This document shows positions 1,184-19,343 of a DNA stretch of 32,000 nucleotides, one piece after another. Location: the NCBI RefSeq assembly GCF_000148385.1, contig NC_014537.1:1380001-1412000 (forward strand). The letters run 5' to 3'. Source of the DNA: Vulcanisaeta distributa DSM 14429 (GTDB lineage Archaea > Thermoproteota > Thermoprotei > Thermoproteales > Thermocladiaceae). The notes beneath the pieces are model-generated. The model saw only the letters and a program-made list of their open reading frames with translations, made no database searches and was not told where the DNA came from. Within the stretch, counting starts at the first letter, position 1. Each line of letters opens with the position of its first letter. A program made the translations under genes and the position numbers.

Positions 1184-1726
1184 TTGATTAGAGTTAATGA
1201 TAAGGCTTTTATTGAGGGATGGCATTACCTTAGATATAAGTTCATGTTGCCTGGGCAACTTGGTAAGCCTCGGAAGGATCTACGGGCATACATTGAGGCC
1301 AGGAGAGCTGAGGCTTCGGCTGAGGTTAGGTTAGCATTAAGGCTGTTGGTTGAGGGTTACACCAGGAACGCCGCCGGTAAGGCGTTTCAGGCATTTAAAT
1401 CATTGCTTGCCGCATTGGCCGGTGAGAGGAGGGAGGAGCTTCGCAATAGTATTAAGAATGTTGATAAGGTAATAGCCTACATGCCCACCTCCATGATTCG
1501 CGATGTGGGTAAGTTACTTGGCCTTGAGAAAGAGTCCCTGCTTGCGTTGGCGCTTCATCAGTATCAATATAATGGTGTTGATCCCGAGGGTATCATGAGC
1601 ATATATACGTCAAGGGACGCCGCAATGAAGGACATATGCAACTTACTGGATAGTGTGGTTAGGGTTCTGGGGGATGAACCATTAAAGCAGGAATTAAGTA
1701 ACGTGTGTGGGTCCTTTCAAGGATAG
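1184..1726 (+). CDS. PaREP1/PaREP8-family protein (archaeal, HEPN-clan-like helical protein)
   Basis: 180-aa ORF. The blocks RNAAGKAFQAFKSLLAALA, IAYMPT and LHQYQYNGVDPEG match my memory of the Pyrobaculum PaREP1 family. The track start is TTG at 1184; an in-frame ATG at 1244 is an alternative. Confidence 0.75.
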   Translation: MIRVNDKAFIEGWHYLRYKFMLPGQLGKPRKDLRAYIEARRAEASAEVRLALRLLVEGYTRNAAGKAFQAFKSLLAALAGERREELRNSIKNVDKVIAYMPTSMIRDVGKLLGLEKESLLALALHQYQYNGVDPEGIMSIYTSRDAAMKDICNLLDSVVRVLGDEPLKQELSNVCGSFQG

Positions 1727-6066: not shown

Positions 6067-6076
6067 TGCAACATGT
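6067..6076. promoter_or_regulatory. Candidate operator site 1 (TGCAACATGT) in the dehydrogenase/dehydratase operon promoter
   Basis: The same 10-mer also occurs at 10205..10214 and 11686..11695. The palindrome centre is 44.5 nt from the ATG at 6118. TATTTAT begins 14 nt after the centre. Confidence 0.5.
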
Positions 6077-6117
6077 ATGTATATACTTATTTATTTAACA
6101 TTTTTAATTTTAAATTA

Positions 6118-7131
6118 ATGAAGGCGCTGGTTTGGACTGCGATTAAGAGAATGGAGGTTAAGGATGTTGAGAAGCCTAAGCCTAGCCTGGGCTGGGTTCT
6201 TCTTAGGGTAAGGTATACCGGCATATGCGGTTCCGATGTATCTGGTTTTCTGGGGCTGAATGAATTGCGTAAACCACCGTTAATAATGGGTCATGAGTTC
6301 ACGGGAGTTGTTGAAGAGGTGGGTCCTAATGTTCCTAAGGATATAATTGGTAGGTTGTTTGCCGTGAATCCAATCGTTGGTTGCGGACATTGCAGGTACT
6401 GTAAAATGGGCCTTAAGAATCTATGTATTGAAAGGAAGATAATCGGCATTGATTACCCAGGTGCGTATGCGGAATACGTATTAGCGCCATACGACAATCT
6501 ATACCCGGTTAGTGATCCTGTTAGAGGTGCGTTGGCTGAGCCATTGGCAACGTCATTAAGGGCCGTTAGGTTATCAAACGCATCCCTTGGAGACTCCGTC
6601 TTAGTTCTTGGGGCTGGGCCCGTCGGCGCCTTTGCAATAAAGCTCTTATCAGCCAGTGGTATTAGGGATCTAACGGTCGTTGAAATTAATAAGAATAGGC
6701 TTGAATGGGCCCGTAGGTTTGGAGCCACAAGACTTATTGAGAAGAGCGGCGATGAGGCGTTAAAGGAGATTAAGGAATTATATCCTGAGGGTGTGGATGT
6801 AGTTATTGATGCTGTCGGTTCTGAAAGTACGAGACGATTAGCGATAAACGCAGTACGAAGAGGCGGTAGAATAATCTTCGTCGGTTTACATGATAATGAG
6901 GTTAAAATACCAGGTAACGTAATTGTCAGGAATGAAATTGAGATAAAGGGCTCCTTCTCATATACAGATGAAGACTTTAGGAGATCAGTAAATCTATTAG
7001 AGCAGGGACTCCTCGATCCACGTGAGGGTTGGGTTGATATTAGACCACTTGAACGCGGTCAAGAATCCTTCGAGGAATTAACAGGAACGTACACAAGGTA
7101 CGTTAAAATAATGCTCACACCAGGTGAGTAA
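6118..7131 (+). CDS. Zn-dependent MDR-family dehydrogenase (sorbitol/threonine/aldose dehydrogenase-like)
   Basis: Catalytic GICGSD and GHEFTG motifs, structural-Zn CGHCRYCKMGLKNLC, and Rossmann GAGPVG are present. The track start at 6073 translates the AT-rich promoter (MYVYTYLFNIFNFKL), so I prefer the ATG at 6118 (MKALVW). Confidence 0.85.
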   Translation: MKALVWTAIKRMEVKDVEKPKPSLGWVLLRVRYTGICGSDVSGFLGLNELRKPPLIMGHEFTGVVEEVGPNVPKDIIGRLFAVNPIVGCGHCRYCKMGLKNLCIERKIIGIDYPGAYAEYVLAPYDNLYPVSDPVRGALAEPLATSLRAVRLSNASLGDSVLVLGAGPVGAFAIKLLSASGIRDLTVVEINKNRLEWARRFGATRLIEKSGDEALKEIKELYPEGVDVVIDAVGSESTRRLAINAVRRGGRIIFVGLHDNEVKIPGNVIVRNEIEIKGSFSYTDEDFRRSVNLLEQGLLDPREGWVDIRPLERGQESFEELTGTYTRYVKIMLTPGE

Positions 7132-8314
7132 TATGAATAATGAGGCTGAAATTATAAAGATCAAGGACGTCAGAGCTTACGTAGTTAAAGGTGGAGGTGC
7201 TGACTATCATGATCAATCACCGAATCACTGGATCCTCGGCTACATAGCAACACCAATATCGATATACCCAGAATATAGGGCAAGTAGAGCATCGTGGGGT
7301 TTAAACGTACTTGGCTCGTTAATTGTTGAAGTTGAGGATTCGAGAGGTGAGGTTGGCTTTGGCGTGAGCACCGGTGGTTATCCAGCTGCTTGGATAGTGG
7401 AGAACCATTTAAAGAGGTTCGTCGTTGGTAAGTATGTAGGTGAAATGGAGAAAACCTGGGATCAGATGTTTAAGGCCACGATATTCTATGGCAGGAGAGG
7501 GCTCGTCATGAATGCGATATCTGCGGTTGACCTTGCCCTATGGGATTTAGCGGGAAAAGTTAGGGGTCTGCCCGTTTACGACCTACTCGGCGGTCCCGTC
7601 AGAGATGAGATAGTGTTCTACGCAACCGGCCCTAGACCCGATATTGCAAAGAAGAAGGGCTTCATAGGTGGTAAGTTACCACTTAAGCATGGACCTGCCG
7701 ATGGTATAGAGGGATTGAAGGAGAACGTGAGGATATTCAAGGAATGGAGGGAGCAACTTGGTGATGATTTCCTGCTTATGTATGATTGTTGGATGAGTTT
7801 AGACTTGCCATATGCTATGAGACTTGTAAGCGAGTTGAAGCCGTACGGTCTTTATTGGATTGAAGAACCGTTTATACCAGATGATTATTGGTCATACGGT
7901 GCCCTCGCTCAGATATTACCACCAACTTTACTAGCCAGCGGTGAACATGAATCAACACTTCACGGCTTTAGAATGCTTCTCGAGGCCGGTAAAGTAAATG
8001 TTATTCAACCAGACATAACCTGGGTCGGCGGCATAACGCCAATGATAAAAATATCAGCCCTCGCAGAGGCATACGGCGCGTATGTGATACCCCACGGTTC
8101 AAGCGTGTACGGCTATCACTTCATAATAACTAGGGTTAATAGCCCATTTGCTGAGTACCTCGTTGTATCTCCAGACGCTACAGAAATAATTCCCCAATTT
8201 AGTCCATTATTACTTAACGAACCAACCCCAGAAAATGGACGAATTAAGCTTAGTAGGAAGCCTGGCTTTGGAGTTGAGCTTAATAGAAAGATTGAGTTGG
8301 TAAGGGTAAAATAA
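7124..8314 (+). CDS. rhmD: Enolase-superfamily sugar-acid dehydratase, L-rhamnonate dehydratase homologue
   Basis: 396 aa, nearly colinear with E. coli YfaW/RhmD as I recall it. Shared blocks are GGADYHDQ..NHWI, GLVMNAISAVDLALWDLAGKVRGLPVYDLLGG, FIGGK.P, SGEHE, PHGSSVYGYHF and KPGFGVELNR. The GTG at 7124 overlaps the upstream stop. An in-frame ATG at 7133 preceded by GGTGAG is an alternative start. Confidence 0.85.
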   Translation: MSNMNNEAEIIKIKDVRAYVVKGGGADYHDQSPNHWILGYIATPISIYPEYRASRASWGLNVLGSLIVEVEDSRGEVGFGVSTGGYPAAWIVENHLKRFVVGKYVGEMEKTWDQMFKATIFYGRRGLVMNAISAVDLALWDLAGKVRGLPVYDLLGGPVRDEIVFYATGPRPDIAKKKGFIGGKLPLKHGPADGIEGLKENVRIFKEWREQLGDDFLLMYDCWMSLDLPYAMRLVSELKPYGLYWIEEPFIPDDYWSYGALAQILPPTLLASGEHESTLHGFRMLLEAGKVNVIQPDITWVGGITPMIKISALAEAYGAYVIPHGSSVYGYHFIITRVNSPFAEYLVVSPDATEIIPQFSPLLLNEPTPENGRIKLSRKPGFGVELNRKIELVRVK

Positions 8315-8346
8315 TCCATTGATTTTATTAGGTGTTTCATTGGTTT

Positions 8347-9135
8347 TTAAATAATCCATTGTTTGTATCTACTTACGTTTTCTGGATCATAGGCAGGTAT
8401 TATATACTTACTAATGCCCCTAAGATATTCGTAGGCATTCAGGCATTCGTAAATGTCCTCAGCGATCCCAATGGGAACGTTCTCAGTTATGTTCCTCATT
8501 GTGAAGGCAGCATCTGTGTAGCTAACGATTCCATCCTTCGTCTCGAGTATTATAGCCATGGAACTCCTATGGTGACACCCAGTCCACTTAACCCTAACTC
8601 CAGGAACCACAACATCTTCATCATTTAGAAGTACAATCCTATCCCAAGCCTCCTCGAACAAGTACTCCCTAACATACCTGGGTAGATAAATGTCCCTGTT
8701 AAGGAAGGGAGATGGCCTTGGATTAACCACATCCTCAAACCAACCTCTCCTCGAGAAGTATATCTTCGCCTTCTTAAACAGGTCTATGTTACCCACGGTG
8801 TAATCCTGCACAGGCGTTATCACGACATGAGCAATATCGTCTGGCCTCAGATTTAACCTCCTAAGAACATTCTCAATCTTTTCATCCTCACTGACTGTAA
8901 AGCGACATCTATCACTGCCAGCCCATTCTCTGAGGAACTTATTCCTAAGGGTTAAATCCCTAACAAGGCCAGTACCAACTAGGACATATCCATCGTCAGT
9001 GTTAATAATCAATGAATAGAAAGAAAGTCTAACCCACCTATCGAACCACTGCATCCAATAAACCTCGGGCCCTGGAACCTCACCATGGTCTCCAACTTTA
9101 GCGAGCCAAAATCGCTTTACGCCCATGTCGGTCAC
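8347..9135 (-). CDS. MBL-fold (AHL-lactonase-like) protein with degenerate metal-binding motifs; possible sugar lactonase
   Basis: 262 aa. Its layout follows metallo-beta-lactamase-fold lactonases: DDGYVLVGTG, DDIAHVVITPVQDYTVGN where THxHxDH is expected, PGVRVKWTGCHHRS where PGHTPGH is expected, and PAYDPE where GHD is expected. Its ATG directly abuts the stop of the upstream dehydrogenase gene. Confidence 0.5.
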   Translation of the reverse strand: MTDMGVKRFWLAKVGDHGEVPGPEVYWMQWFDRWVRLSFYSLIINTDDGYVLVGTGLVRDLTLRNKFLREWAGSDRCRFTVSEDEKIENVLRRLNLRPDDIAHVVITPVQDYTVGNIDLFKKAKIYFSRRGWFEDVVNPRPSPFLNRDIYLPRYVREYLFEEAWDRIVLLNDEDVVVPGVRVKWTGCHHRSSMAIILETKDGIVSYTDAAFTMRNITENVPIGIAEDIYECLNAYEYLRGISKYIIPAYDPENVSRYKQWII

Positions 9136-10167
9136 CTACGGTGTTATTACAAATCTACCTAGTACTTTACCCTCCGCTAGCCTATTTAAAGCGTTGTTAA
9201 TGGCATTCTCTTCGAGAGGCACCTTCTCTATGTAAGACCTTATTCCATGTTCCTTCACGAATTTAACCATCTCCTCCATCTCACTTATGGAGCCATAATT
9301 ACTACCAATAACTATATATTGCCAAACTGTAGTTTCAAACACAGGTATCGGATAGGACTTACCCTCCATACCGACTAGTATAACGGCGCCGCCTGGTTCC
9401 AATAAGGGAATCATTTTTGCGGATTCATCATTGCCCACAAAGTCGAGCATTACGGCTACACCGTCCGGATTCAAATCCCTGATCACTTTATTAACTTCAC
9501 TTGGATGTACTGCGTAGTGAGCTCCTAATTCCATGGCCCATTTAAGTTTATTATCACTTCTAGAAACTGCTATTATTTTTACATAAGGTGCTAAGTGCTT
9601 AAGGTATTGAATAGCGTACGACGCTAATCCACCAACGCCGTAGACAATAACCAGCGAGTCCGGTCTTAAATAAGGCAATGCCTTTTTAACAGCCGAGTAT
9701 GAAGTTAAACCTGCATCAGCTAATGGTGCGGCCTCTACCGGGTCAATATCTATCTTAACTAAGTATCTATAATTAGGTACATATAGATACTCTGCATAGC
9801 CGCCATAATAATACGATTGGCCTGGAATAGCATGACCTCTACATTGCATACATTTATCAACACGGCAATACTTACAATTCAAGTCTGCCCATATCGCGTA
9901 AACAAGGACCTTATCACCAGGATTTAACCCCTTAACTCTTTTACCAACGGCCTCAACAACACCCGCATTTTCATGACCGAGAACAAAAGGCGTTTTAAAT
10001 CCCTCTCTAGGCTCCTCACCTCTCCATAATCTTACGTCTGTCTTACACATACCAGCACCTACTATTCTAACGAGTACCGATTCATCATCACCGGGTTCAG
10101 GAATATCTACGTACCCCAACCTTAATGGTTTGCTGAACTCCTGAAGTATTGCTGCTTTCACCTTCAC
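9136..10167 (-). CDS. Zn-dependent alcohol dehydrogenase (MDR family)
   Basis: 343 aa. It has GHENAGVVEAVG, the structural-Zn cluster CKYCRVDKCMQC, and Rossmann GVGGLA. It starts with GTG, and TTTATAA lies about 30 nt upstream. Confidence 0.85.
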   Translation of the reverse strand: MKVKAAILQEFSKPLRLGYVDIPEPGDDESVLVRIVGAGMCKTDVRLWRGEEPREGFKTPFVLGHENAGVVEAVGKRVKGLNPGDKVLVYAIWADLNCKYCRVDKCMQCRGHAIPGQSYYYGGYAEYLYVPNYRYLVKIDIDPVEAAPLADAGLTSYSAVKKALPYLRPDSLVIVYGVGGLASYAIQYLKHLAPYVKIIAVSRSDNKLKWAMELGAHYAVHPSEVNKVIRDLNPDGVAVMLDFVGNDESAKMIPLLEPGGAVILVGMEGKSYPIPVFETTVWQYIVIGSNYGSISEMEEMVKFVKEHGIRSYIEKVPLEENAINNALNRLAEGKVLGRFVITP

Positions 10168-10204
10168 AATACTTAATGATATAAAGTATCTTATAAATCA
10201 TGAC

Positions 10205-10215
10205 TGCAACATGTT
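10205..10215. promoter_or_regulatory. Candidate operator site 2 (TGCAACATGTT) in the alcohol dehydrogenase/MBL operon promoter
   Basis: The palindrome centre is 44.5 nt from the GTG at 10167. On the gene strand, 7 nt separate the motif from TTTATAA. Confidence 0.5.
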
Positions 10216-10283
10216 AGATTTAAACAGATTAAGAAAATCAATTTTAATTTAAAATAAAGTTTATTTTAAATTTATTAAATTAA

Positions 10284-11645
10284 TTACGGAATCTTGCCTC
10301 CATAAAAGTCCCTTAAAACCTCCTCTAATGATTTACCCTGCGATTTGGGTCCATATAGATAACCTATTATTATGTTTAATATGAAGAATGTTGTGGCCAC
10401 TGCCGCAATGGCTTTATATCCAATTACGGCTATTAAAGTTGGTACTATTAAGCTCCATACACCTAGGGCAAATCTCATCCAGGACCATGCAAAGCCCTGG
10501 GCGCTGTTCCTTATTTCAGTTGGGAATAATTCGGTCGACCAAACCCTTGTCTGTGGCCAAAGCCACATACCATGTCCAAATCCGAACCCTATTACGTTAA
10601 GTAATGCGACCCATAATATACTAAATGGTAAGAATATGGGCACTGCAAATGATATGGCGCATATGGCGGCAGCCACCGCATACATCACGTTCCTATTTAG
10701 CTTATCGGATAATTGCATATAAACTGCTACTACACCTATTATTGCTGTGATGAACCACAGTATGTCGCCTACATAAGCCATCGTGGTTGTTGTGAATCCA
10801 ATATCCTTAAAGAAGTAGGGTAGGAAGAATCCAAAGGTTCCTGCGGGCACGCCCCAGAATATATAAATTGGTATTATGAAAGCTAATCCTTTCTTATACT
10901 TAAAGATATCACTCCATTTATATTTATACTGAGATTGTGCGCCTTGAGATGCGCTTGTCTGCTGAGTTGCCTGTTCACCAAGCTGTTTTAATGCTTCCTG
11001 AACTACGTTCGTCTTTCCAGCCACTAACCCCCACCTAGGTGACTCGATTAAGCCTCTTCTGAGGATCCATGTTATTATTGCAACGGCAGCCAATACACCG
11101 AACACAGCCCTAAAGGTTAATGCTCCATAGGGCTCAAAAGCTATACCAAGTAGAAGCATCACTATGGGTCCTATGTACCAAAAGAGGTTAGTAAATGCCA
11201 TTAAGAATCCTCTTTTATATTTTGGTGCATATTCCGCTATTAATGACCAGGATGTAGGTACATCGAGACCAACAGCAATGCCAACAATTATATATCCTAC
11301 TAAGAGCATAATATAATTAACGGCTGCGGCCATTATTAAAGCGCCTATGAAGTATGCAAGTAAATCATACATATAGATTGTTTTTCTTCCATACCTATCA
11401 CCAAGTGGTCCCGCAATTATCGCCCCAACAAATGCAGCAAATGCGTTGGGACTAAATGCGGCGATGATGCCCAGCAAGAGAGATGTTAAATGGAACGTTG
11501 AAATCCAATATATGGTGGACACAGCGCCAGCGACTATTGAACCAGCATCTAGGAAATCACCCATCGCCGCTAAAACGGTCCACCTATAGTGAGCTAAGGT
11601 TAGTCTTGCCTCATCAAACCTCCTTATTACATCCCACGAGCTCAT
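10284..11645 (-). CDS. MFS transporter (sugar or metabolite:H+ symporter type)
   Basis: 453 aa with about 12 hydrophobic helices. It has the MFS loop 2-3 signature GPLGDRYGRKTIY and a central hydrophilic loop. Confidence 0.85.
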   Translation of the reverse strand: MSSWDVIRRFDEARLTLAHYRWTVLAAMGDFLDAGSIVAGAVSTIYWISTFHLTSLLLGIIAAFSPNAFAAFVGAIIAGPLGDRYGRKTIYMYDLLAYFIGALIMAAAVNYIMLLVGYIIVGIAVGLDVPTSWSLIAEYAPKYKRGFLMAFTNLFWYIGPIVMLLLGIAFEPYGALTFRAVFGVLAAVAIITWILRRGLIESPRWGLVAGKTNVVQEALKQLGEQATQQTSASQGAQSQYKYKWSDIFKYKKGLAFIIPIYIFWGVPAGTFGFFLPYFFKDIGFTTTTMAYVGDILWFITAIIGVVAVYMQLSDKLNRNVMYAVAAAICAISFAVPIFLPFSILWVALLNVIGFGFGHGMWLWPQTRVWSTELFPTEIRNSAQGFAWSWMRFALGVWSLIVPTLIAVIGYKAIAAVATTFFILNIIIGYLYGPKSQGKSLEEVLRDFYGGKIP

Positions 11646-11685
11646 ACGGCATTAATAATATATTTTTATAGATATAAAGTAGCTA

Positions 11686-11697
11686 TGCAACATGTTG
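11686..11697. promoter_or_regulatory. Candidate operator site 3 (TGCAACATGTTG, containing the 10-bp perfect palindrome CAACATGTTG) between the MFS and regulator genes
   Basis: The palindrome centre is 47.5 nt from the MFS ATG at 11645. On the MFS strand, 7 nt separate the motif from TTTATAT. The site lies about 80 nt upstream of the regulator GTG at 11772. Confidence 0.5.
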
Positions 11698-11771
11698 TAT
11701 AACAGTTCTAGAAGTTTACATAAAATAAGGAAAAGAAAAAGTTTATAATAAAATCAATGGGCTAGAGTGCT

Positions 11772-12464
11772 GTGAGAAATATTAATTACAATATAACTTT
11801 ACTAGATTTAACTTATGTTCATGAGGTTGACTGGACCGCAAGTATTACCGATTTTGATTGGGTTTATAGGGTTACTCAGGCTGGTTTTGATTACTCTAAG
11901 GGTGAGGTTATTGAGGTTGCAACATTAAGGGTTAATCGTAAGGATGATTTAAGGTATGTTTTTAGTTCATTACGTAAGCATGGTATTGACATGGTATATT
12001 TTATGGGTGTAAATCCTGGTTATCCTAAGTATGTTAAGGTTATTGTTAAGGGTAGTATTGACTTATCCACACGCTTCCTAGCTCAGGAACTTGGCCTCCT
12101 TGAGGTTTATGCCTACTACGTTAATGGTATTGAGCATTGGGGCTTCCTGGCCCTTAATCGTGAATCACTTGACCAATTCCTTAAGGAGATCACGAATTAC
12201 GGTAAGATTTTAAGTAATAATATTAGGGTTTTAAAGATCGAGGATTTAATTACGGCGAATGCATCAAGGCTTGATGTATTCTTAAATTCAAGTGAGTATA
12301 AGGTGCTTAGGCACGCTTTTGAACGTGGCTTCTTTAATATTCCACGATCAATAAGTATGGACGAATTGTCTAAAGAACTTGGTCTTTCGAAATCCACGAT
12401 AGATCGTTATTTACGATCATCACTAAATAAGATCCTCAGAATTATAGTAAGGAACGAAAATTAA
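11772..12464 (+). CDS. HTH_10 (bacterio-opsin-activator-type) transcriptional regulator with an unassigned N-terminal domain
   Basis: 230 aa. The C-terminal sequence SSEYKVLRHAFERGFFNIPRSISMDELSKELGLSKSTIDRYLRSSLNKIL fits the HTH_10 pattern (GYF..PR...l.elA..LgiS..t..ehLR). It starts with GTG, and TTTATAATAAAA lies about 25 nt upstream. Confidence 0.75.
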   Translation: MRNINYNITLLDLTYVHEVDWTASITDFDWVYRVTQAGFDYSKGEVIEVATLRVNRKDDLRYVFSSLRKHGIDMVYFMGVNPGYPKYVKVIVKGSIDLSTRFLAQELGLLEVYAYYVNGIEHWGFLALNRESLDQFLKEITNYGKILSNNIRVLKIEDLITANASRLDVFLNSSEYKVLRHAFERGFFNIPRSISMDELSKELGLSKSTIDRYLRSSLNKILRIIVRNEN

Positions 12465-14763: not shown

Positions 14764-15747
14764 ATGTCTGTTAAGATGATTGATATCACGAGTAAGGAGC
14801 CGGTCTATAGGGAGGCCATCGCCACGGGCTTCCTGAGGGTTGACGAGGACACAATGGGCGAGCTAATGAAGACCGGCGTTAGTGGCCTTGGTAATGCCGC
14901 GGCGATAGCTAAGGTAACGGCGATAAACGCAACAAAAACGGCTTGGAAGTACATACCGCTCCTTCACCCAGTGCCAATTACGTACATTGAGGCCAAGGTA
15001 CGCTATGAAAAGAATGGAATTAGAATGGCGGTGTTGGCTAGGACGAAGGCTCAGACGGGCGTTGAGATGGATGCGTTGTTCGGCCTATTCACGGGTTTAC
15101 TGGCTGCATGGAACACGATTAAGGGGTGTAGTAGGACATGTACTCCTGAGTGGGTCACAAACTTCATGGGCAAGCAAGTACAGACTTGCGGTTCTAGCCG
15201 TGTTGATGGTATGTTCGACATTAAAGTCGTTAGTAAGGTTAAGTCTGAGGATGGGGTAAGTCTATCACTAAGTGATTTTGAGGATAATACCGGCGGTTCA
15301 CCCGTGGTGACCATGTTTGACGTAACCACAGAACCAACGTATTACGGTGAGGCATCGGCTAGAGGCTTCATAAAGCTTAGGGAGGGTACGATTGAGTTGA
15401 TTAGGCAGGGTAAGGTGGAGAAGGGTGACGTAGTGACGGTCGCAAAGACGGCCTCAATAATGGCCACTAAGAGGACCTGGGAGGTTTTACCGCTCGTGCA
15501 CCTTAATTACATTACATACGTTAATACCGATGTTAAGGTTGTTGAGGATGGGGTTGAGATTACCGTGGATACACGCAACGTGTCAAACACGGGCTCTGCC
15601 ATGGAGGCTGTGTTCGCCGTTGGTGTTGGCTTATTGACTGTTTGGGATATGGTTAAGAAGTATGAGAAAGATGAGAATGGTCAATACCCATACACCGTGA
15701 TAAGGGAGGTTAAGGTATTGAAGGCTCTTAAGACGCCTGCTGTTTAA
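14764..15747 (+). CDS. moaC: Tandem-duplicated MoaC (cyclic pyranopterin monophosphate synthase) fusion protein
   Basis: 327 aa holding two MoaC-like halves that align with each other. Half 1 reads MIDITSKEPVYREAIATGF...IPLLHPVP...TGVEMDAL. Half 2 reads MFDVTTEPTYYGEASARGF...KGDVVTVAKTASIMATKRTWEVLPLVH...TGSAMEAV...WDMVKK. They are joined by a Cys-containing linker. Confidence 0.8.
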   Translation: MSVKMIDITSKEPVYREAIATGFLRVDEDTMGELMKTGVSGLGNAAAIAKVTAINATKTAWKYIPLLHPVPITYIEAKVRYEKNGIRMAVLARTKAQTGVEMDALFGLFTGLLAAWNTIKGCSRTCTPEWVTNFMGKQVQTCGSSRVDGMFDIKVVSKVKSEDGVSLSLSDFEDNTGGSPVVTMFDVTTEPTYYGEASARGFIKLREGTIELIRQGKVEKGDVVTVAKTASIMATKRTWEVLPLVHLNYITYVNTDVKVVEDGVEITVDTRNVSNTGSAMEAVFAVGVGLLTVWDMVKKYEKDENGQYPYTVIREVKVLKALKTPAV

Positions 15748-17199: not shown

Positions 17200-17393
17200 A
17201 TAAATATATTTGAATAATAATCTATGTAATAGAATAATCGTATTAACTCACGTATTACTAATATACCTCCTGCCTTGATATTGTTTAATCTAAACTTGTC
17301 ATAATTATCATAAAATTTGATATTAGTAAGGAAATTATGTGAGATTTAGCGTATTGAGACCGATATATTCGTCCGTTGCATTTCCAAGCGATG

Positions 17394-17403
17394 TTTTTAA
17401 ATA
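17394..17403 (+). promoter_or_regulatory. TATA box (TTTTTAAATA) of the Cren7 gene
   Basis: An AT-rich box about 30 nt upstream of the ATG at 17433. This implies a very short or absent leader. Confidence 0.5.
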
Positions 17404-17432
17404 CTCCCGAACCAAGGAATTTATTGACCGGT

Positions 17433-17624
17433 ATGGTTACGCTTGAGGATCTGGCTAAGAGGGAGTATGAGGTTGAGGGTAGGAAGTTGAGGCCTACGAA
17501 GGTTTGGAAGGTTCAGCCTAAGGGTAGGAAGGGCTTCGTAATGGCGTTGTTCAAGACACCAGACGGAAAAACAGTAAGAAAAGTAATAGCAAAAGTAGAC
17601 GAACAAGGAAACATAATAACCTAA
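17433..17624 (+). CDS. cren7: Chromatin protein Cren7
   Basis: The 63-aa product [51 protein letters not shown]... matches the Sulfolobus Cren7 core ([27 protein letters not shown]). The track start at 17376 (TTG) would place the TATA box inside the ORF. Confidence 0.85.
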
Positions 17625-17665
17625 GGCACATAATAGCATTAAAATTAATCCATAAAAACCATACA

Positions 17666-17683
17666 TTTTTCCTTTTATTTTTC
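17666..17683 (+). terminator. Oligo-T terminator region downstream of Cren7 (TTTTTCCTTTTATTTTTC)
   Basis: Three T-runs lie within 18 nt, about 40 nt after the stop codon. Archaeal RNA polymerase terminates at oligo-T tracts. Confidence 0.5.
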
Positions 17684-17700
17684 TAAGAAATCATATTAAT

Positions 17701-18272: not shown

Positions 18273-19343
18273 TTACGGTATTACCTCTGTTGAGTCTAGC
18301 ACTGGGTCGTACATCAACTCATTACCATTAATAATGCCTTTCTTGATGAGTTCCTTAATCCTGGGCGCTATTGACAGTACTGCCTTTATAGTTTCCTTAG
18401 TCACGTAATCCACGGCTTCGACACCATCCCGACCCCAGTACTTCTCACCCTCCATTAATGCGTATAGGCACCTACCACCACAATAAGGTCTAAACTCGCA
18501 GTTCATGCATGTCTCAGGCAAACTCATCTTCATTAGTTTAAATCCATCATTAACACCTCCAAGGACCGCCCATTGCTCCCTAACAGCTATTGGGCATGCC
18601 AATACCCTGCCATCTGTCGAAACCGCAACTGCCCTATAACCTGCACCGCATGGTGGCCCTTCATATGGTTTAAATAAGTATGCACTTAATATGCCGAGTA
18701 TCGGCACTATACCCAATACCTTACCCTCCTCGGCATTCCTCAGGAATAAACTCACTAATCTCTTAATACCTGGCAGGTAACTGCCGTTAGCCCACGTCTT
18801 AACATCCCATTTATTGGTCCATATCACGTTCAACTGCCAATGAACATAGTCAAAGCCAAGACCTAGCAGGTGCGTGACATCCTCGTATATGTCCGTTAAT
18901 TCCGTAACCGTCATCCTGGCAATGATCCTCTTAACGCCTATGTTCCTTAGGTAATTGAGTGCATTAACAACAGCCCTATAAACACCTCTACCCCTATTGG
19001 TATCGGTAACGCTTTCCCTACCATCAATAGATAGTAAAACTACATCCATTCTCCTCCAATAGTCCCTGGGCAGTAAATTAACAAGGGTACCATTAGTCTG
19101 AATTCCAAATCTCCTTGCCCTGATATTGTCCATGGCCCACATTATGAAGCGTGGATTGAGCAGTGGCTCACCGCCGTAAAAAATCACCGTGGCATCCGCA
19201 TCCCCCTCAATTAACCGTTTCAGCTTATTAACATCGTAAGTAACCCTCCAGGGTACAACATGTGGTTCAAAGGATCCTCCGCAGTACGAGCACTTAAGGT
19301 TGCATACGCCCGTTGTAAATAGAAGCCACAGCATCCTTAACAC
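18273..19343 (-). CDS. Radical SAM enzyme with C-terminal SPASM domain (peptide/protein-modifying maturase-like)
   Basis: It has the CNLKCSYC (CX3CX2C) radical SAM cluster motif and the GGEPLL block. The C-terminal CGAGYRAVAVSTDGRVLAC (GX4C) and CMNCEFRPYCGGRC (CX2CX5CX3C) form the SPASM signature. The start is GTG at 19343 or ATG at 19334. Confidence 0.85.
   Translation of the reverse strand: MLRMLWLLFTTGVCNLKCSYCGGSFEPHVVPWRVTYDVNKLKRLIEGDADATVIFYGGEPLLNPRFIMWAMDNIRARRFGIQTNGTLVNLLPRDYWRRMDVVLLSIDGRESVTDTNRGRGVYRAVVNALNYLRNIGVKRIIARMTVTELTDIYEDVTHLLGLGFDYVHWQLNVIWTNKWDVKTWANGSYLPGIKRLVSLFLRNAEEGKVLGIVPILGILSAYLFKPYEGPPCGAGYRAVAVSTDGRVLACPIAVREQWAVLGGVNDGFKLMKMSLPETCMNCEFRPYCGGRCLYALMEGEKYWGRDGVEAVDYVTKETIKAVLSIAPRIKELIKKGIINGNELMYDPVLDSTEVIP

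What the first reader, a model, noticed from the sequence alone, without database searches (positions are those of the whole stretch)
6067..11697. The same palindromic element (TGCAACATGT; ideal TGCAACATGTTGCA) sits at a fixed position in all three promoters of the sugar-acid island
**Occurrence.** The 10-mer TGCAACATGT occurs at 6067-6076, 10205-10214 and 11686-11695, all intergenic. Sites 1 and 3 share the 12-mer TATGCAACATGT. Site 3 contains the perfect 10-bp palindrome CAACATGTTG.

**Geometry.** The palindrome centre is 44.5, 44.5 and 47.5 nt from the start codons at 6118 (+), 10167 (-) and 11645 (-). In each case a TATA-like box (TATTTAT, TTTATAA, TTTATAT) begins 14 nt after the centre on the gene strand. 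This places the site directly upstream of the expected BRE/TATA.

**Interpretation.** This is where archaeal activators, or TFB-blocking repressors, bind. A divergent HTH_10 regulator gene (11772-12464) lies next to site 3 and is the obvious candidate binder. The only other copy of the core that I noticed (CAACATGT at about 19257) is inside a coding region. A 10-mer recurring three times in the small intergenic fraction of this window, with conserved spacing, is not expected by chance. I have not run a formal background model.
Basis: seen in the sequence. Interest (0 to 1): 0.7.

Follow-up and report, generated by a model that had tools for sequence, protein, structure and literature searches.

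The report
Ara-box-type sugar promoter switch, Vulcanisaeta
Three promoters of a sugar-acid (probably L-rhamnose-type) utilisation gene cluster in the hot-spring archaeon Vulcanisaeta distributa carry the same 14-bp palindrome at the same position. The element is real, but it is a relative of the known 'Ara-box'/XylR sugar switch of Sulfolobus, not a new kind of element.

Summary
TGCAACATGT occurs exactly three times, always intergenic, with its centre 44.5, 44.5 and 47.5 nt from three start codons and a TATA-like box about 14 nt downstream.

Recurrence alone is weak evidence. About 41 different 10-mers recur at least three times in shuffled windows. The case rests on four other points:
- It is the only non-A/T 10-mer repeated in intergenic DNA (p about 0.04).
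- The fixed offset has a chance probability of about 0.006.
- It is conserved as an island in orthologous promoters of at least 6 related lineages. All 20 unique sites lie 43.5-47.5 nt from a start codon.
- The core matches a known element.

That core, AACATGTT, is the Sulfolobales 'Ara-box', which sits just upstream of BRE/TATA and requires the activator XylR. The adjacent HTH_10 gene (11772-12464) is a full-length distant homologue of S. islandicus XylR (hhalign 99.7 %, E 8e-26). The S. islandicus and S. acidocaldarius Ara-boxes sit at the same offsets (44.5 and 47.5 nt).

Best reading: this is a XylR-family activator site controlling a dehydrogenase / L-rhamnonate-dehydratase / lactonase-like / MFS-transporter island in a different archaeal order. 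It is a new member of a known kind. Binding, inducer and direction of regulation are inferred, not shown.

The parts
6067..6080 (+). Site 1, TGCAACA|TGTATGT. The distal half is perfect and the proximal half is degenerate. Its centre is 44.5 nt upstream of the ATG at 6118.
   Evidence: The block TATGCAACATGT is invariant in 4 orthologous promoters whose mean column identity is 70 %.
6088..6094 (+). TATA-like box TATTTAT of promoter 1, about 24-30 nt before the ATG. This spacing is consistent with a leaderless or short-leader mRNA.
   Evidence: second information peak, 13-21 nt after the site centre. The transcription start site is not mapped.
6118..7131 (+). Zn-dependent medium-chain dehydrogenase (ADH1), first gene of operon 1.
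   Evidence: Pfam ADH_N and ADH_zinc_N. The start at 6118 is supported by orthologue N-termini.
7124..8314 (+). L-rhamnonate dehydratase-family enzyme (enolase superfamily). It overlaps ADH1 by 8 nt, so the two form one operon.
   Evidence: NCBIfam NF011968, 644 bits against a cut-off of 393. It is only 29 % identical to the S. islandicus arabinonate-dehydratase-type protein.
8347..9135 (-). Lactonase-like protein with weak metallo-beta-lactamase-type lactonase matches. It is the second gene of operon 2.
   Evidence: all matches below cut-off. Homologues carry their own site in L014 (34 % identity) and in L019 (65 % identity).
9136..10167 (-). Second Zn-dependent dehydrogenase (ADH2), first gene of operon 2.
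10191..10197 (-). TATA-like box TTTATAA of promoter 2 (read on the minus strand).
10205..10218 (-). Site 2. On the gene strand it reads TCTAACA|TGTTGCA, with the proximal half perfect. Its centre is 44.5 nt upstream of the GTG at 10167.
10284..11645 (-). MFS sugar-porter-type transporter.
   Evidence: Pfam Sugar_tr and MFS_1
11672..11678 (-). TATA-like box TTTATAT of promoter 3 (read on the minus strand).
11686..11699 (-). Site 3. On the gene strand it reads TACAACA|TGTTGCA and contains the perfect palindrome CAACATGTTG. Its centre is 47.5 nt upstream of the MFS ATG at 11645 and 79.5 nt from the regulator start.
   Evidence: The distance to the regulator start varies among orthologues (79.5, 88.5 and 85.5 nt), so the site is positioned for the MFS gene.
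11772..12464 (+). XylR-family regulator of 230 aa. The N-terminal domain of about 155 residues is built of beta-alpha-beta units and may be the sensor. The C-terminus carries an HTH_10 domain.
   Evidence: Pfam HTH_10. Identical to a V. distributa protein. Homology to S. islandicus XylR. AF2 model with pLDDT 86.

Best explanation
The three palindromes are Ara-box-type upstream activating sites. I infer that a dimer of the adjacent XylR-family HTH_10 protein (11772-12464) binds the 14-bp element TGCAACA|TGTTGCA (core AACATGTT). The element is centred about 44-47 nt before the start codon, directly upstream of BRE/TATA.

When the cognate sugar or sugar acid is sensed by the N-terminal domain, the protein would help recruit TFB/TBP to otherwise weak promoters. 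This would switch on three transcription units:
- ADH1 plus the L-rhamnonate-dehydratase-family enzyme;
- ADH2 plus the lactonase-like protein;
- the MFS transporter.

Together these look like an oxidative, non-phosphorylative pathway for L-rhamnose or a stereochemically related sugar (L-lyxose, L-mannose).

Shown here: the sites, their geometry, their conservation, and the homology of the regulator to XylR. Inferred: binding, activation rather than repression, TFB recruitment, and the inducer.
For: 1. The sites are exact and exclusively intergenic. This is the only complex 10-mer repeated in intergenic DNA. The fixed offset has P about 0.006.
2. Phylogenetic footprint. The motif is an invariant island in all three promoters of two other Vulcanisaeta genomes (L001, L003) and of metagenomic relatives (L005, L006, L008, L014-L018). 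All 20 unique sites have their centre 43.5-47.5 nt from the start codon and a TATA-like box 13-15 nt after the centre.
3. Regulon membership survives rearrangement. In L014 the lactonase-like gene has its own promoter and its own site. The regulator there lies upstream of ADH1 instead of diverging from the MFS gene.
4. The core AACATGTT is the Sulfolobales Ara-box. That element is essential for pentose-induced promoter activity and depends on XylR (PMC7264815). It lies immediately upstream of BRE/TATA and is thought to act by TFB recruitment to a weak BRE (PMC5512572, citing Peng 2009 and 2011).
5. S. islandicus XylR (M1627_2327) was identified as P0073 from the published primer sequences. The window protein hits it over its full length (E 1e-6 against 1.8 billion proteins; BLASTP 1e-12; hhalign 99.7 %, E 8e-26, 213 columns). 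Both proteins have a C-terminal HTH_10 domain.
6. The geometry is the same in Sulfolobales. The S. islandicus Ara-box centre is 44.5 nt from the aldehyde-dehydrogenase ATG. The S. acidocaldarius saci_2122 box centre is 47.5 nt from its ATG, reconstructed from primers.
7. A third subfamily (L019, Acidianus-like) shows a different palindrome with the same ACA|TGT core. It sits at 43.5-44.5 nt in four promoters of a similar cluster.
Against: - No binding, expression or transcription-start data exist for Vulcanisaeta.
- Direct XylR-Ara-box binding has not been shown even in Sulfolobus. It is 'proposed' in PMC7264815.
- The regulator is only 23-24 % identical to XylR and is not its orthologue. An Acidianus HTH_10 protein is closer (31 %).
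- Site 1 has AACATGTA. In S. acidocaldarius a T>C change at that eighth base nearly abolishes activity (PMC7264815).
- In distant relatives the central ATGT is not kept (L005 TGCAACT|TATTGCA; L006 TGCAACA|CTTTGCC). The outer TGCAA/TTGCA bases may therefore matter more here than the Ara-box core.
- More distant homologues (L011, L012) showed no recognisable site.
- The rest of the genome could not be scanned.
Confidence: 0.7

Rival explanations
1. Same protein and same site, but the regulator is a repressor. Bound just upstream of BRE/TATA, it would hinder TFB/TBP binding or bend the DNA until the sugar releases it.
For: The site abuts the BRE position, with only 6-7 nt between the 14-mer and the TATA-like box. 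The direction of regulation cannot be read from sequence. Many archaeal HTH regulators are repressors (general knowledge).
Against: The homologous XylR is an activator: the deletion mutant loses transcription and growth on pentoses (PMC7264815). Ara-box mutations abolish rather than de-repress promoter activity (same paper). Archaeal repressors usually overlap or lie downstream of TATA/BRE, and activators lie upstream (PMC5512572 discussion; general knowledge).
Confidence: 0.15
2. The palindrome is a real regulatory site but is bound by a different transcription factor encoded elsewhere, such as a global carbon regulator. The neighbouring HTH_10 gene would then be unrelated to it.
For: No binding data exist. 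V. distributa and relatives probably encode several HTH_10 paralogues. Caldivirga maquilingensis, for example, has at least two (P0067, P0189).
Against: The motif co-occurs with this regulator subfamily in every lineage sampled, in two different gene orders. Other subfamilies sit next to other palindromes: the Ara-box next to XylR in L010 and CCTTACA|TGTAAGG next to P0192 in L019. This is the pattern expected if each regulator recognises its neighbouring sites.
Confidence: 0.1
3. The three copies are chance recurrences, or remnants of a repeated or mobile sequence, with no function.
For: About 41 10-mers recur at least three times by chance in a 32-kb window. PaREP1-type repeated genes exist in this genome.
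Against: Only 10-14 bp are shared, and the flanks are unrelated. The copies are exclusively intergenic at a fixed offset. They are conserved in at least 6 lineages while the neighbouring intergenic bases diverge. The core matches an experimentally validated element (PMC7264815).
Confidence: 0.02

Closest known systems
Ara-box (AACATGTT) with the XylR activator (Saci_2116 / M1627_2327) of Sulfolobales
   Same: - The 8-bp palindromic core is the same: exact in sites 2 and 3, and 7 of 8 in site 1.
- The position is the same, immediately upstream of BRE/TATA, with the centre 44.5-47.5 nt from the start codon in S. islandicus, S. acidocaldarius and here.
- The regulator architecture is the same: an N-terminal domain of about 160 aa plus a C-terminal HTH_10, homologous over the full length.
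- The kind of target is the same: oxidative sugar-acid pathway genes (Zn-dehydrogenase, enolase-superfamily dehydratase) plus a transporter. The regulator gene lies beside them and is apparently not itself positioned behind the site.
   Different: - The order is different (Thermoproteales rather than Sulfolobales).
- The element is extended to a 14-mer by TGC/GCA, bases that are not conserved in Sulfolobus (GTAAACATGTTAGC, TTTAACATGTTAAA).
- The regulator is only 23-24 % identical to XylR and is a paralogous subfamily, not an orthologue.
- The targets are an L-rhamnonate-dehydratase-family cluster with an MFS transporter, not the pentose (Weimberg) genes with an ABC transporter.
- No experimental data exist.
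Uncharacterised Acidianus-like module (L019/L020; regulator P0192, 67 % identical to A. manzaensis WP_187152763)
   Same: It has a closer regulator homologue (about 30 % identity), and its lactonase-like protein is 65 % identical to the window's. Gene content is similar: MR_MLE dehydratase, Zn-ADH and MFS. Four promoters carry a 14-bp palindrome with the same ACA|TGT centre at 43.5-44.5 nt from the start codon.
   Different: The outer bases differ: CC(W)(W)ACA|TGT(W)(W)GG instead of TGCAACA|TGTTGCA. It is known only from a metagenome, and nothing about it is published in the searched library.
Archaeal activators that bind upstream of BRE and recruit TFB/TBP (TFB-RF1/PF1088 of Pyrococcus, Ptr2 of Methanocaldococcus, EarA of Methanococcus)
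   Same: The site lies directly upstream of a presumably weak BRE/TATA. The proposed mechanism of TFB recruitment is the one discussed for the Ara-box factor (PMC5512572).
   Different: The protein families are unrelated (these are not HTH_10 proteins), the motifs differ, and the mechanism has not been tested here.
Bat / HTH_10 (PF04967, 'bacterio-opsin activator') regulators of haloarchaea
   Same: The C-terminal HTH_10 DNA-binding domain is shared.
   Different: Bat-type proteins carry GAF/PAS sensor domains. This protein has a different, unclassified N-terminal domain built of beta-alpha-beta units. It has no Pfam match, no convincing PDB fold match by Foldseek and no PDB sequence match.

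Membership tests
Ara-box cis-element (Sulfolobales) | Palindromic core AACATGTT | tested here: met
   Exact at 10208-10215 and 11689-11696. Site 1 has AACATGTA at 6070-6077. In distant relatives the central bases can vary.
Ara-box cis-element (Sulfolobales) | Located immediately upstream of BRE/TATA of the regulated promoter | tested here: met
   The TATA-like box starts 13-15 nt after the centre. The offset to the start codon is 43.5-47.5 nt in 20 unique sites, the same as in S. islandicus (44.5) and S. acidocaldarius saci_2122 (47.5). Transcription starts are not mapped, so this rests on sequence geometry.
Ara-box cis-element (Sulfolobales) | Present in several promoters of one sugar-catabolic regulon, including the transporter | tested here: met
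   There are three promoters in the window (two enzyme operons and the MFS gene) and four in L014. The sugar differs from that of the Sulfolobus regulon.
Ara-box cis-element (Sulfolobales) | Required for sugar-induced promoter activity | not testable with these tools
   This needs reporter or in vitro transcription assays.
XylR family (Saci_2116 / M1627_2327) | C-terminal HTH_10 (PF04967) domain in a protein of about 230 aa | tested here: met
   Window protein: residues 174-222, 59 bits. S. islandicus XylR (P0073): residues 168-219, 62 bits.
XylR family (Saci_2116 / M1627_2327) | Homology across the whole length, including the N-terminal domain | tested here: met
   phmmer E 9.9e-7 with residues 12-225 aligned to 7-222. 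BLASTP 1e-12 at 23 % identity. hhalign 99.7 %, E 8e-26, 213 columns.
XylR family (Saci_2116 / M1627_2327) | Orthology to XylR (closest Sulfolobales relative, same regulon) | tested here: not met
   An Acidianus HTH_10 protein (P0019) is closer than XylR: 31 % identity and E 1e-23, against 24 % and E 1e-6. The targets are not the pentose genes. The window protein is therefore a paralogous subfamily, not XylR itself.
XylR family (Saci_2116 / M1627_2327) | Gene lies next to genes whose promoters carry the cognate box | tested here: met
   Window. S. islandicus L010: XylR lies 2.5 kb from the boxed KdaD/aldehyde-dehydrogenase promoter.
XylR family (Saci_2116 / M1627_2327) | Acts as a sugar-dependent transcriptional activator and binds the box | not testable with these tools
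   This needs EMSA, footprinting, genetics or in vitro transcription.
Non-phosphorylative L-rhamnose pathway cluster | L-rhamnonate dehydratase (LRA3/RhamD) present | tested here: met
   NF011968 equivalog, 644 bits against a cut-off of 393.
Non-phosphorylative L-rhamnose pathway cluster | Complete enzyme set: sugar 1-dehydrogenase, lactonase, and KDR aldolase or KDR dehydrogenase plus hydrolase | tested here: inconclusive
   Two Zn-dehydrogenases and a lactonase-like protein are present, but all score below every curated cut-off. No aldolase or FAH-type hydrolase lies in the island. The substrate is therefore only inferred.

The most novel reading that the evidence does not exclude
XylR-like HTH_10 proteins may form a family of sugar-acid-pathway activators spread across the Crenarchaeota. 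All members would use a 14-bp palindrome with a common ACA|TGT centre at a fixed position, about 44 nt before the start codon and abutting BRE. The outer four bases of each half-site would encode paralogue specificity:
- TGCA in Vulcanisaeta;
- CC(W)(W) in an Acidianus-like lineage;
- (W)(W)A in XylR.

This would give a readable recognition code and a set of naturally orthogonal activator-promoter pairs. The pathway genes themselves appear to move between orders: the lactonase-like protein is 65 % identical between a Sulfolobales-like contig and Vulcanisaeta. After such a move they would be re-wired to the local paralogue.
Probability: 0.4. Interest if true: 0.55.

Novelty: new member of a known kind. 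Interest (0 to 1): 0.38.

Why it matters
- It extends the Ara-box/XylR activation module, so far described only in Sulfolobales and only for pentoses, to another crenarchaeal order and to a different sugar pathway.
- It gives a testable regulon and candidate inducers (L-rhamnose, L-lyxose, L-mannose) for Vulcanisaeta, an organism with no genetic system and no regulatory data.
- The strictly conserved offset supports the idea that this activator class works by a fixed contact with the TFB/TBP platform.
- Comparing three subfamilies (XylR, Vulcanisaeta-type, Acidianus-like) offers natural specificity variants for dissecting how an HTH_10 dimer reads DNA.
- The same variants could be used to build orthogonal sugar-inducible promoters for thermophilic archaeal hosts.
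- It is not a new principle.

Tried and rejected
1. **Whole-window recurrence statistic.** I rejected this as evidence, because about 41 10-mers recur at least three times in shuffles. I replaced it with intergenic-only and positional tests.
2. **Fetching the S. acidocaldarius xylR locus.** I scanned genome contigs with published primer 6849. I identified XylR instead by matching the S. islandicus primer-encoded N- and C-termini to P0073.
4. **Two profile searches with the search for homologous proteins**. These returned no Sulfolobus XylR because of the word-index limit. The exhaustive search did.
5. **Look-ups of P0005 and P0019.** No contig was on record for either.
6. **More distant regulator homologues.** L011 (43 % identity, GC-rich) and L012 (38 %) showed no recognisable palindrome. 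The system cannot be traced that far by eye.
8. **Restriction-site avoidance as a cause of rarity.** CATG and ACATGT are not depleted in the window.
9. **Other sites in the window.** None with up to 4 mismatches lies in intergenic DNA. The rest of the window is housekeeping genes.
10. **Literature.** No paper in the library links Vulcanisaeta with rhamnose, and none describes an Ara-box outside Sulfolobales.

Full report
**What is in the sequence**

The 10-mer TGCAACATGT occurs exactly three times in the window, at 6067, 10205 and 11686. Read as 14-mers, the sites are:
- TGCAACATGTATGT (site 1)
- TGCAACATGTTAGA (site 2)
- TGCAACATGTTGTA (site 3)

These differ from the ideal palindrome TGCAACATGTTGCA by 4, 2 and 1 bases. 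All three sites are intergenic. The only other near match in a similar class, TACAACATGT at 19254, lies inside a radical-SAM gene.

Sites 1 and 3 share a 12-mer, site 3 contains CAACATGTTG, and the TATA-like heptamers lie where stated.

The ORF listing starts the first gene at 6073, which is the ATG inside the motif. Orthologues all begin MKALVWTA at the ATG equivalent to 6118, and the DNA upstream is not conserved as protein.

The centres of the sites lie 44.5, 44.5 and 47.5 nt from the start codons at 6118(+), 10167(-) and 11645(-).

**Is it more than chance?**

The window holds about 155 strand-collapsed 10-mers with at least three copies, and dinucleotide-preserving shuffles give a mean of 41. 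The figure of 0.07 expected copies applies only to this one pre-chosen word.

Three other tests carry the weight.
1. In the 4.4 kb of intergenic DNA, only seven 10-mers recur three times or more. Six are pure A/T, and this is the only complex one. Any word with at least 3 G/C does so in 84 of 2000 shuffles.
2. One random site in each of the three promoters falls within a 3-nt spread of distance to a start codon with P = 0.006.
3. The motif is conserved across species, as described below.

**Context**

The regulator protein is 100 % identical to a Vulcanisaeta distributa protein, so the window comes from a member of the Thermoproteales. The island comprises:
- 6118-7131(+): Zn-dependent dehydrogenase.
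- 7124-8314(+): L-rhamnonate-dehydratase-family enzyme (NF011968, 644 bits, above the cut-off). It overlaps the preceding gene by 8 nt.
- 9136-10167(-): second Zn-dependent dehydrogenase.
- 8347-9135(-): lactonase-like protein, abutting the second dehydrogenase.
- 10284-11645(-): MFS sugar porter.
- 11772-12464(+): divergent HTH_10 protein.

The flanking genes are housekeeping (2-oxoacid:ferredoxin oxidoreductase, KaiC-like, inositol-phosphate synthase, thymidylate kinase and others).

The dehydratase assignment points to L-rhamnose or a stereochemical relative. The other enzymes score below every curated cut-off, and no aldolase or hydrolase lies in the island. The substrate is therefore an inference.

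**Comparative evidence**

I fetched syntenic clusters from two other Vulcanisaeta genomes (L001, L003; regulators 82 and 81 % identical). I also fetched metagenomic relatives: L005 (77 %), L006-L008 and L013-L018 (47-59 %).

In alignments of the three promoters, the motif is an invariant block while the surrounding intergenic columns diverge. In promoter 1, for example, TATGCAACATGT is invariant in 4 sequences whose mean column identity is 70 %.

Across 20 unique sites, the centre lies 43.5-47.5 nt from the start codon of the served gene:
- ADH1: 43.5-45.5 nt
- ADH2: 43.5-46.5 nt
- MFS transporter: 46.5-47.5 nt
- lactonase-like gene in L014: 45.5 nt

An information profile anchored on the site centre shows two peaks. 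One is the motif, with gene-strand consensus TA-T-n-CAACA|TGT-TG-n-A, in which the promoter-distal half is the better conserved. The other is a TATA-like box 13-21 nt downstream.

The regulon survives rearrangement. In L014-L018 the regulator gene lies directly upstream of ADH1 instead of diverging from the MFS gene. There the lactonase-like gene (34 % identical) has its own promoter with its own site.

The distance from site 3 to the regulator's own start varies (79.5, 88.5 and 85.5 nt). The site is therefore placed for the transporter gene, not for the regulator gene.

In the most distant relatives, the central bases change while the outer TGCAA/TTGCA bases stay (L005 TGCAACT|TATTGCA; L006 TGCAACA|CTTTGCC).

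**What it corresponds to**

The core AACATGTT is the 'Ara-box' of Sulfolobales. It was first described upstream of arabinose-induced genes of S. solfataricus. It is conserved in Sulfolobales and is essential for promoter activity. It depends on the activator XylR (saci_2116): the xylR deletion mutant loses transcription and growth on pentoses, and single T>C changes at box positions 7 or 8 nearly abolish activity. S. islandicus M1627_2327 complements the deletion (PMC7264815). The box lies immediately upstream of BRE/TATA, and its factor is thought to recruit TFB to a weak BRE (PMC5512572, citing Peng et al. 2009 and 2011).

I could not fetch saci_2116 itself, because the one genome scan was lost to a chance hit. 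However, the primers in the paper's supplement encode the N-terminus MMHVYKVEL and the C-terminus KILSQLFINSQ of M1627_2327. Protein P0073 (ACP56186.1, S. islandicus, 'Bacterio-opsin activator HTH domain protein') has exactly these ends.

P0073 had already appeared as a full-length hit of the window regulator in the exhaustive search (E 9.9e-7, residues 12-225 against 7-222, 24 % identity). Pairwise BLASTP gives 1e-12. A profile of the Vulcanisaeta-type family against XylR gives hhalign probability 99.7 %, E 8e-26, over 213 columns spanning both the N-terminal domain and the HTH. Both proteins carry HTH_10 at the C-terminus.

The window protein is thus a XylR-family member but not an orthologue. 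An Acidianus manzaensis protein is closer (31 % identity, E 1e-23).

**Same promoter architecture**

In the S. islandicus XylR locus (L010), a single Ara-box lies in the divergent promoter between the FAH-family (KdaD-type) gene and the aldehyde-dehydrogenase gene. Its centre is 44.5 nt from the aldehyde-dehydrogenase ATG and 42.5-45.5 nt from the other start. An A/T-rich box follows about 10 nt after the 8-mer.

I reconstructed the S. acidocaldarius saci_2122 promoter from primers 8946-8949, 6835 and 7909. It reads ...CGTTTAACATGTTAAAATAAATACTAATAATTGATAAGCGTCTTACTTATCATAACATG. This places the box centre 47.5 nt from the ATG.

These are the same two offsets seen in the window.

**A third variant**

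The Acidianus-like subfamily (regulator P0192, loci L019/L020) sits beside an MR_MLE dehydratase, a Zn-dehydrogenase, an MFS transporter and a 252-aa protein that is 65 % identical to the window's lactonase-like protein.

Its four promoters carry a different palindrome at 43.5, 43.5, 43.5 and 44.5 nt from the start codons:
- CCGAATA|TGTTTGG
- TCTTCCC|TGTTTGG
- CCTTACA|TGTATGG
- CCTTACA|AGTAAGG

The three subfamilies therefore share the ACA|TGT centre and the offset but differ in the outer bases. This is the pattern expected if each regulator reads its own neighbouring sites. It argues against an unrelated global factor.

**The protein**

An AlphaFold2 model built from 26 sequences (mean pLDDT 86) shows an N-terminal domain made of beta-alpha-beta units (residues 8-154), a flexible linker, and a C-terminal helical HTH (residues 167-227). 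Foldseek against PDB gives only weak matches with low TM-scores, to ACT-like regulatory subunits and Ta1207. There is no PDB sequence relative. I treat the N-terminal domain as a probable ligand sensor, but this is inference.

**Mechanism, with status of each step**

Shown here:
- three conserved palindromic sites at a fixed offset just upstream of TATA-like boxes;
- an adjacent XylR-family gene;
- the same core and geometry as the validated Ara-box.

Inferred from homology and the literature:
- a dimer of the regulator binds the palindrome;
- binding activates transcription by helping TFB/TBP onto a weak BRE/TATA;
- a sugar or sugar acid of the L-rhamnose type is the signal;
- transcripts are leaderless or nearly so.

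Rival readings are a repressor, another factor, or chance. I rate these 0.15, 0.1 and 0.02.

**Novelty and value**

The element type, its regulator family and its likely mode of action are known from Sulfolobus. What is new is its presence, in extended 14-bp form, in Thermoproteales, attached to a different sugar pathway and a different transporter class. The hint that paralogous regulators share the core and position but differ in outer-base specificity is also new. In the searchable library, the Ara-box is discussed only for Sulfolobales (3 archaeal papers), and nothing links Vulcanisaeta to rhamnose.

I classify it as a new member of a known kind, of moderate interest to specialists in archaeal transcription and of practical interest for inducible promoters.

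Noticed in passing
window 6073-6117: The ATG inside site 1 (6073) opens a spurious 15-codon N-terminal extension of the dehydrogenase ORF, so the ORF listing reports 6073..7131. Orthologue N-termini (MKALVWTA) show that the real start is 6118. An automatic annotation using the longest ORF would hide the promoter and the site inside a 'coding' region.
   Followed up: yes
L019 2597-2610, 5134-5147, 8599-8612, 9433-9446 (same in L020): An Acidianus-like metagenomic cluster has a related HTH_10 regulator. It carries a different 14-bp palindrome, CC(W)(W)ACA|TGT(W)(W)GG, at 43.5-44.5 nt before four start codons (dehydratase, dehydrogenase, lactonase-like, MFS). The ACA|TGT centre and the offset are the same as in the window, and the outer bases differ.
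   Followed up: partly
window 8347-9135 vs L019 8649-9407: The lactonase-like protein is 65 % identical between Vulcanisaeta (43 % GC) and a Sulfolobales-like contig (32 % GC). The neighbouring regulators are only about 30 % identical. This suggests horizontal transfer of pathway genes followed by re-wiring to a local regulator.
   Followed up: no
L014 5561-5621 (same in L015; partly in L017 3707): A divergent promoter carries two separate sites 47 bp apart, TGAAACATATTGAA and TCAAACATGTTGGA. Each is about 44-45 nt from its own gene. In contrast, the single S. islandicus Ara-box serves both divergent genes.
   Followed up: partly
L017 8851-8864: The site TATGACATGTTGCA lies 54.5 nt, not about 44 nt, before the ATG of a lactonase-like gene (MIKRFWLAKV). 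This is an outlier by roughly one helical turn, or the start codon is miscalled.
   Followed up: no
window 1184-1726 and L019 1022-1552: A PaREP1-family gene lies near the sugar island in the window, and another lies directly beside the regulator in the Acidianus-like contig. The recurrence may be a coincidence.
   Followed up: no
window 14764-15747: A 327-aa ORF matches MoaC in two stretches (the best is residues 184-320). This is about twice the usual MoaC length, so it looks like a duplicated or fused MoaC.
   Followed up: no
window 17200-17700: This is a 500-nt 'intergenic' stretch with low GC (0.36). In the syntenic L001 and L003 loci a 63-aa Cren7 gene occupies this position after the DHBP-synthase gene. 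A short chromatin-protein gene therefore probably lies here, below the ORF length threshold I used.
   Followed up: no
L001 and L003 (whole loci): In these two draft Vulcanisaeta assemblies, many genes of the cluster are split into two or three pieces (dehydrogenases, MFS, oxidoreductase beta subunit). This looks like sequencing frameshifts rather than real pseudogenes, because the window copy is intact.
   Followed up: no
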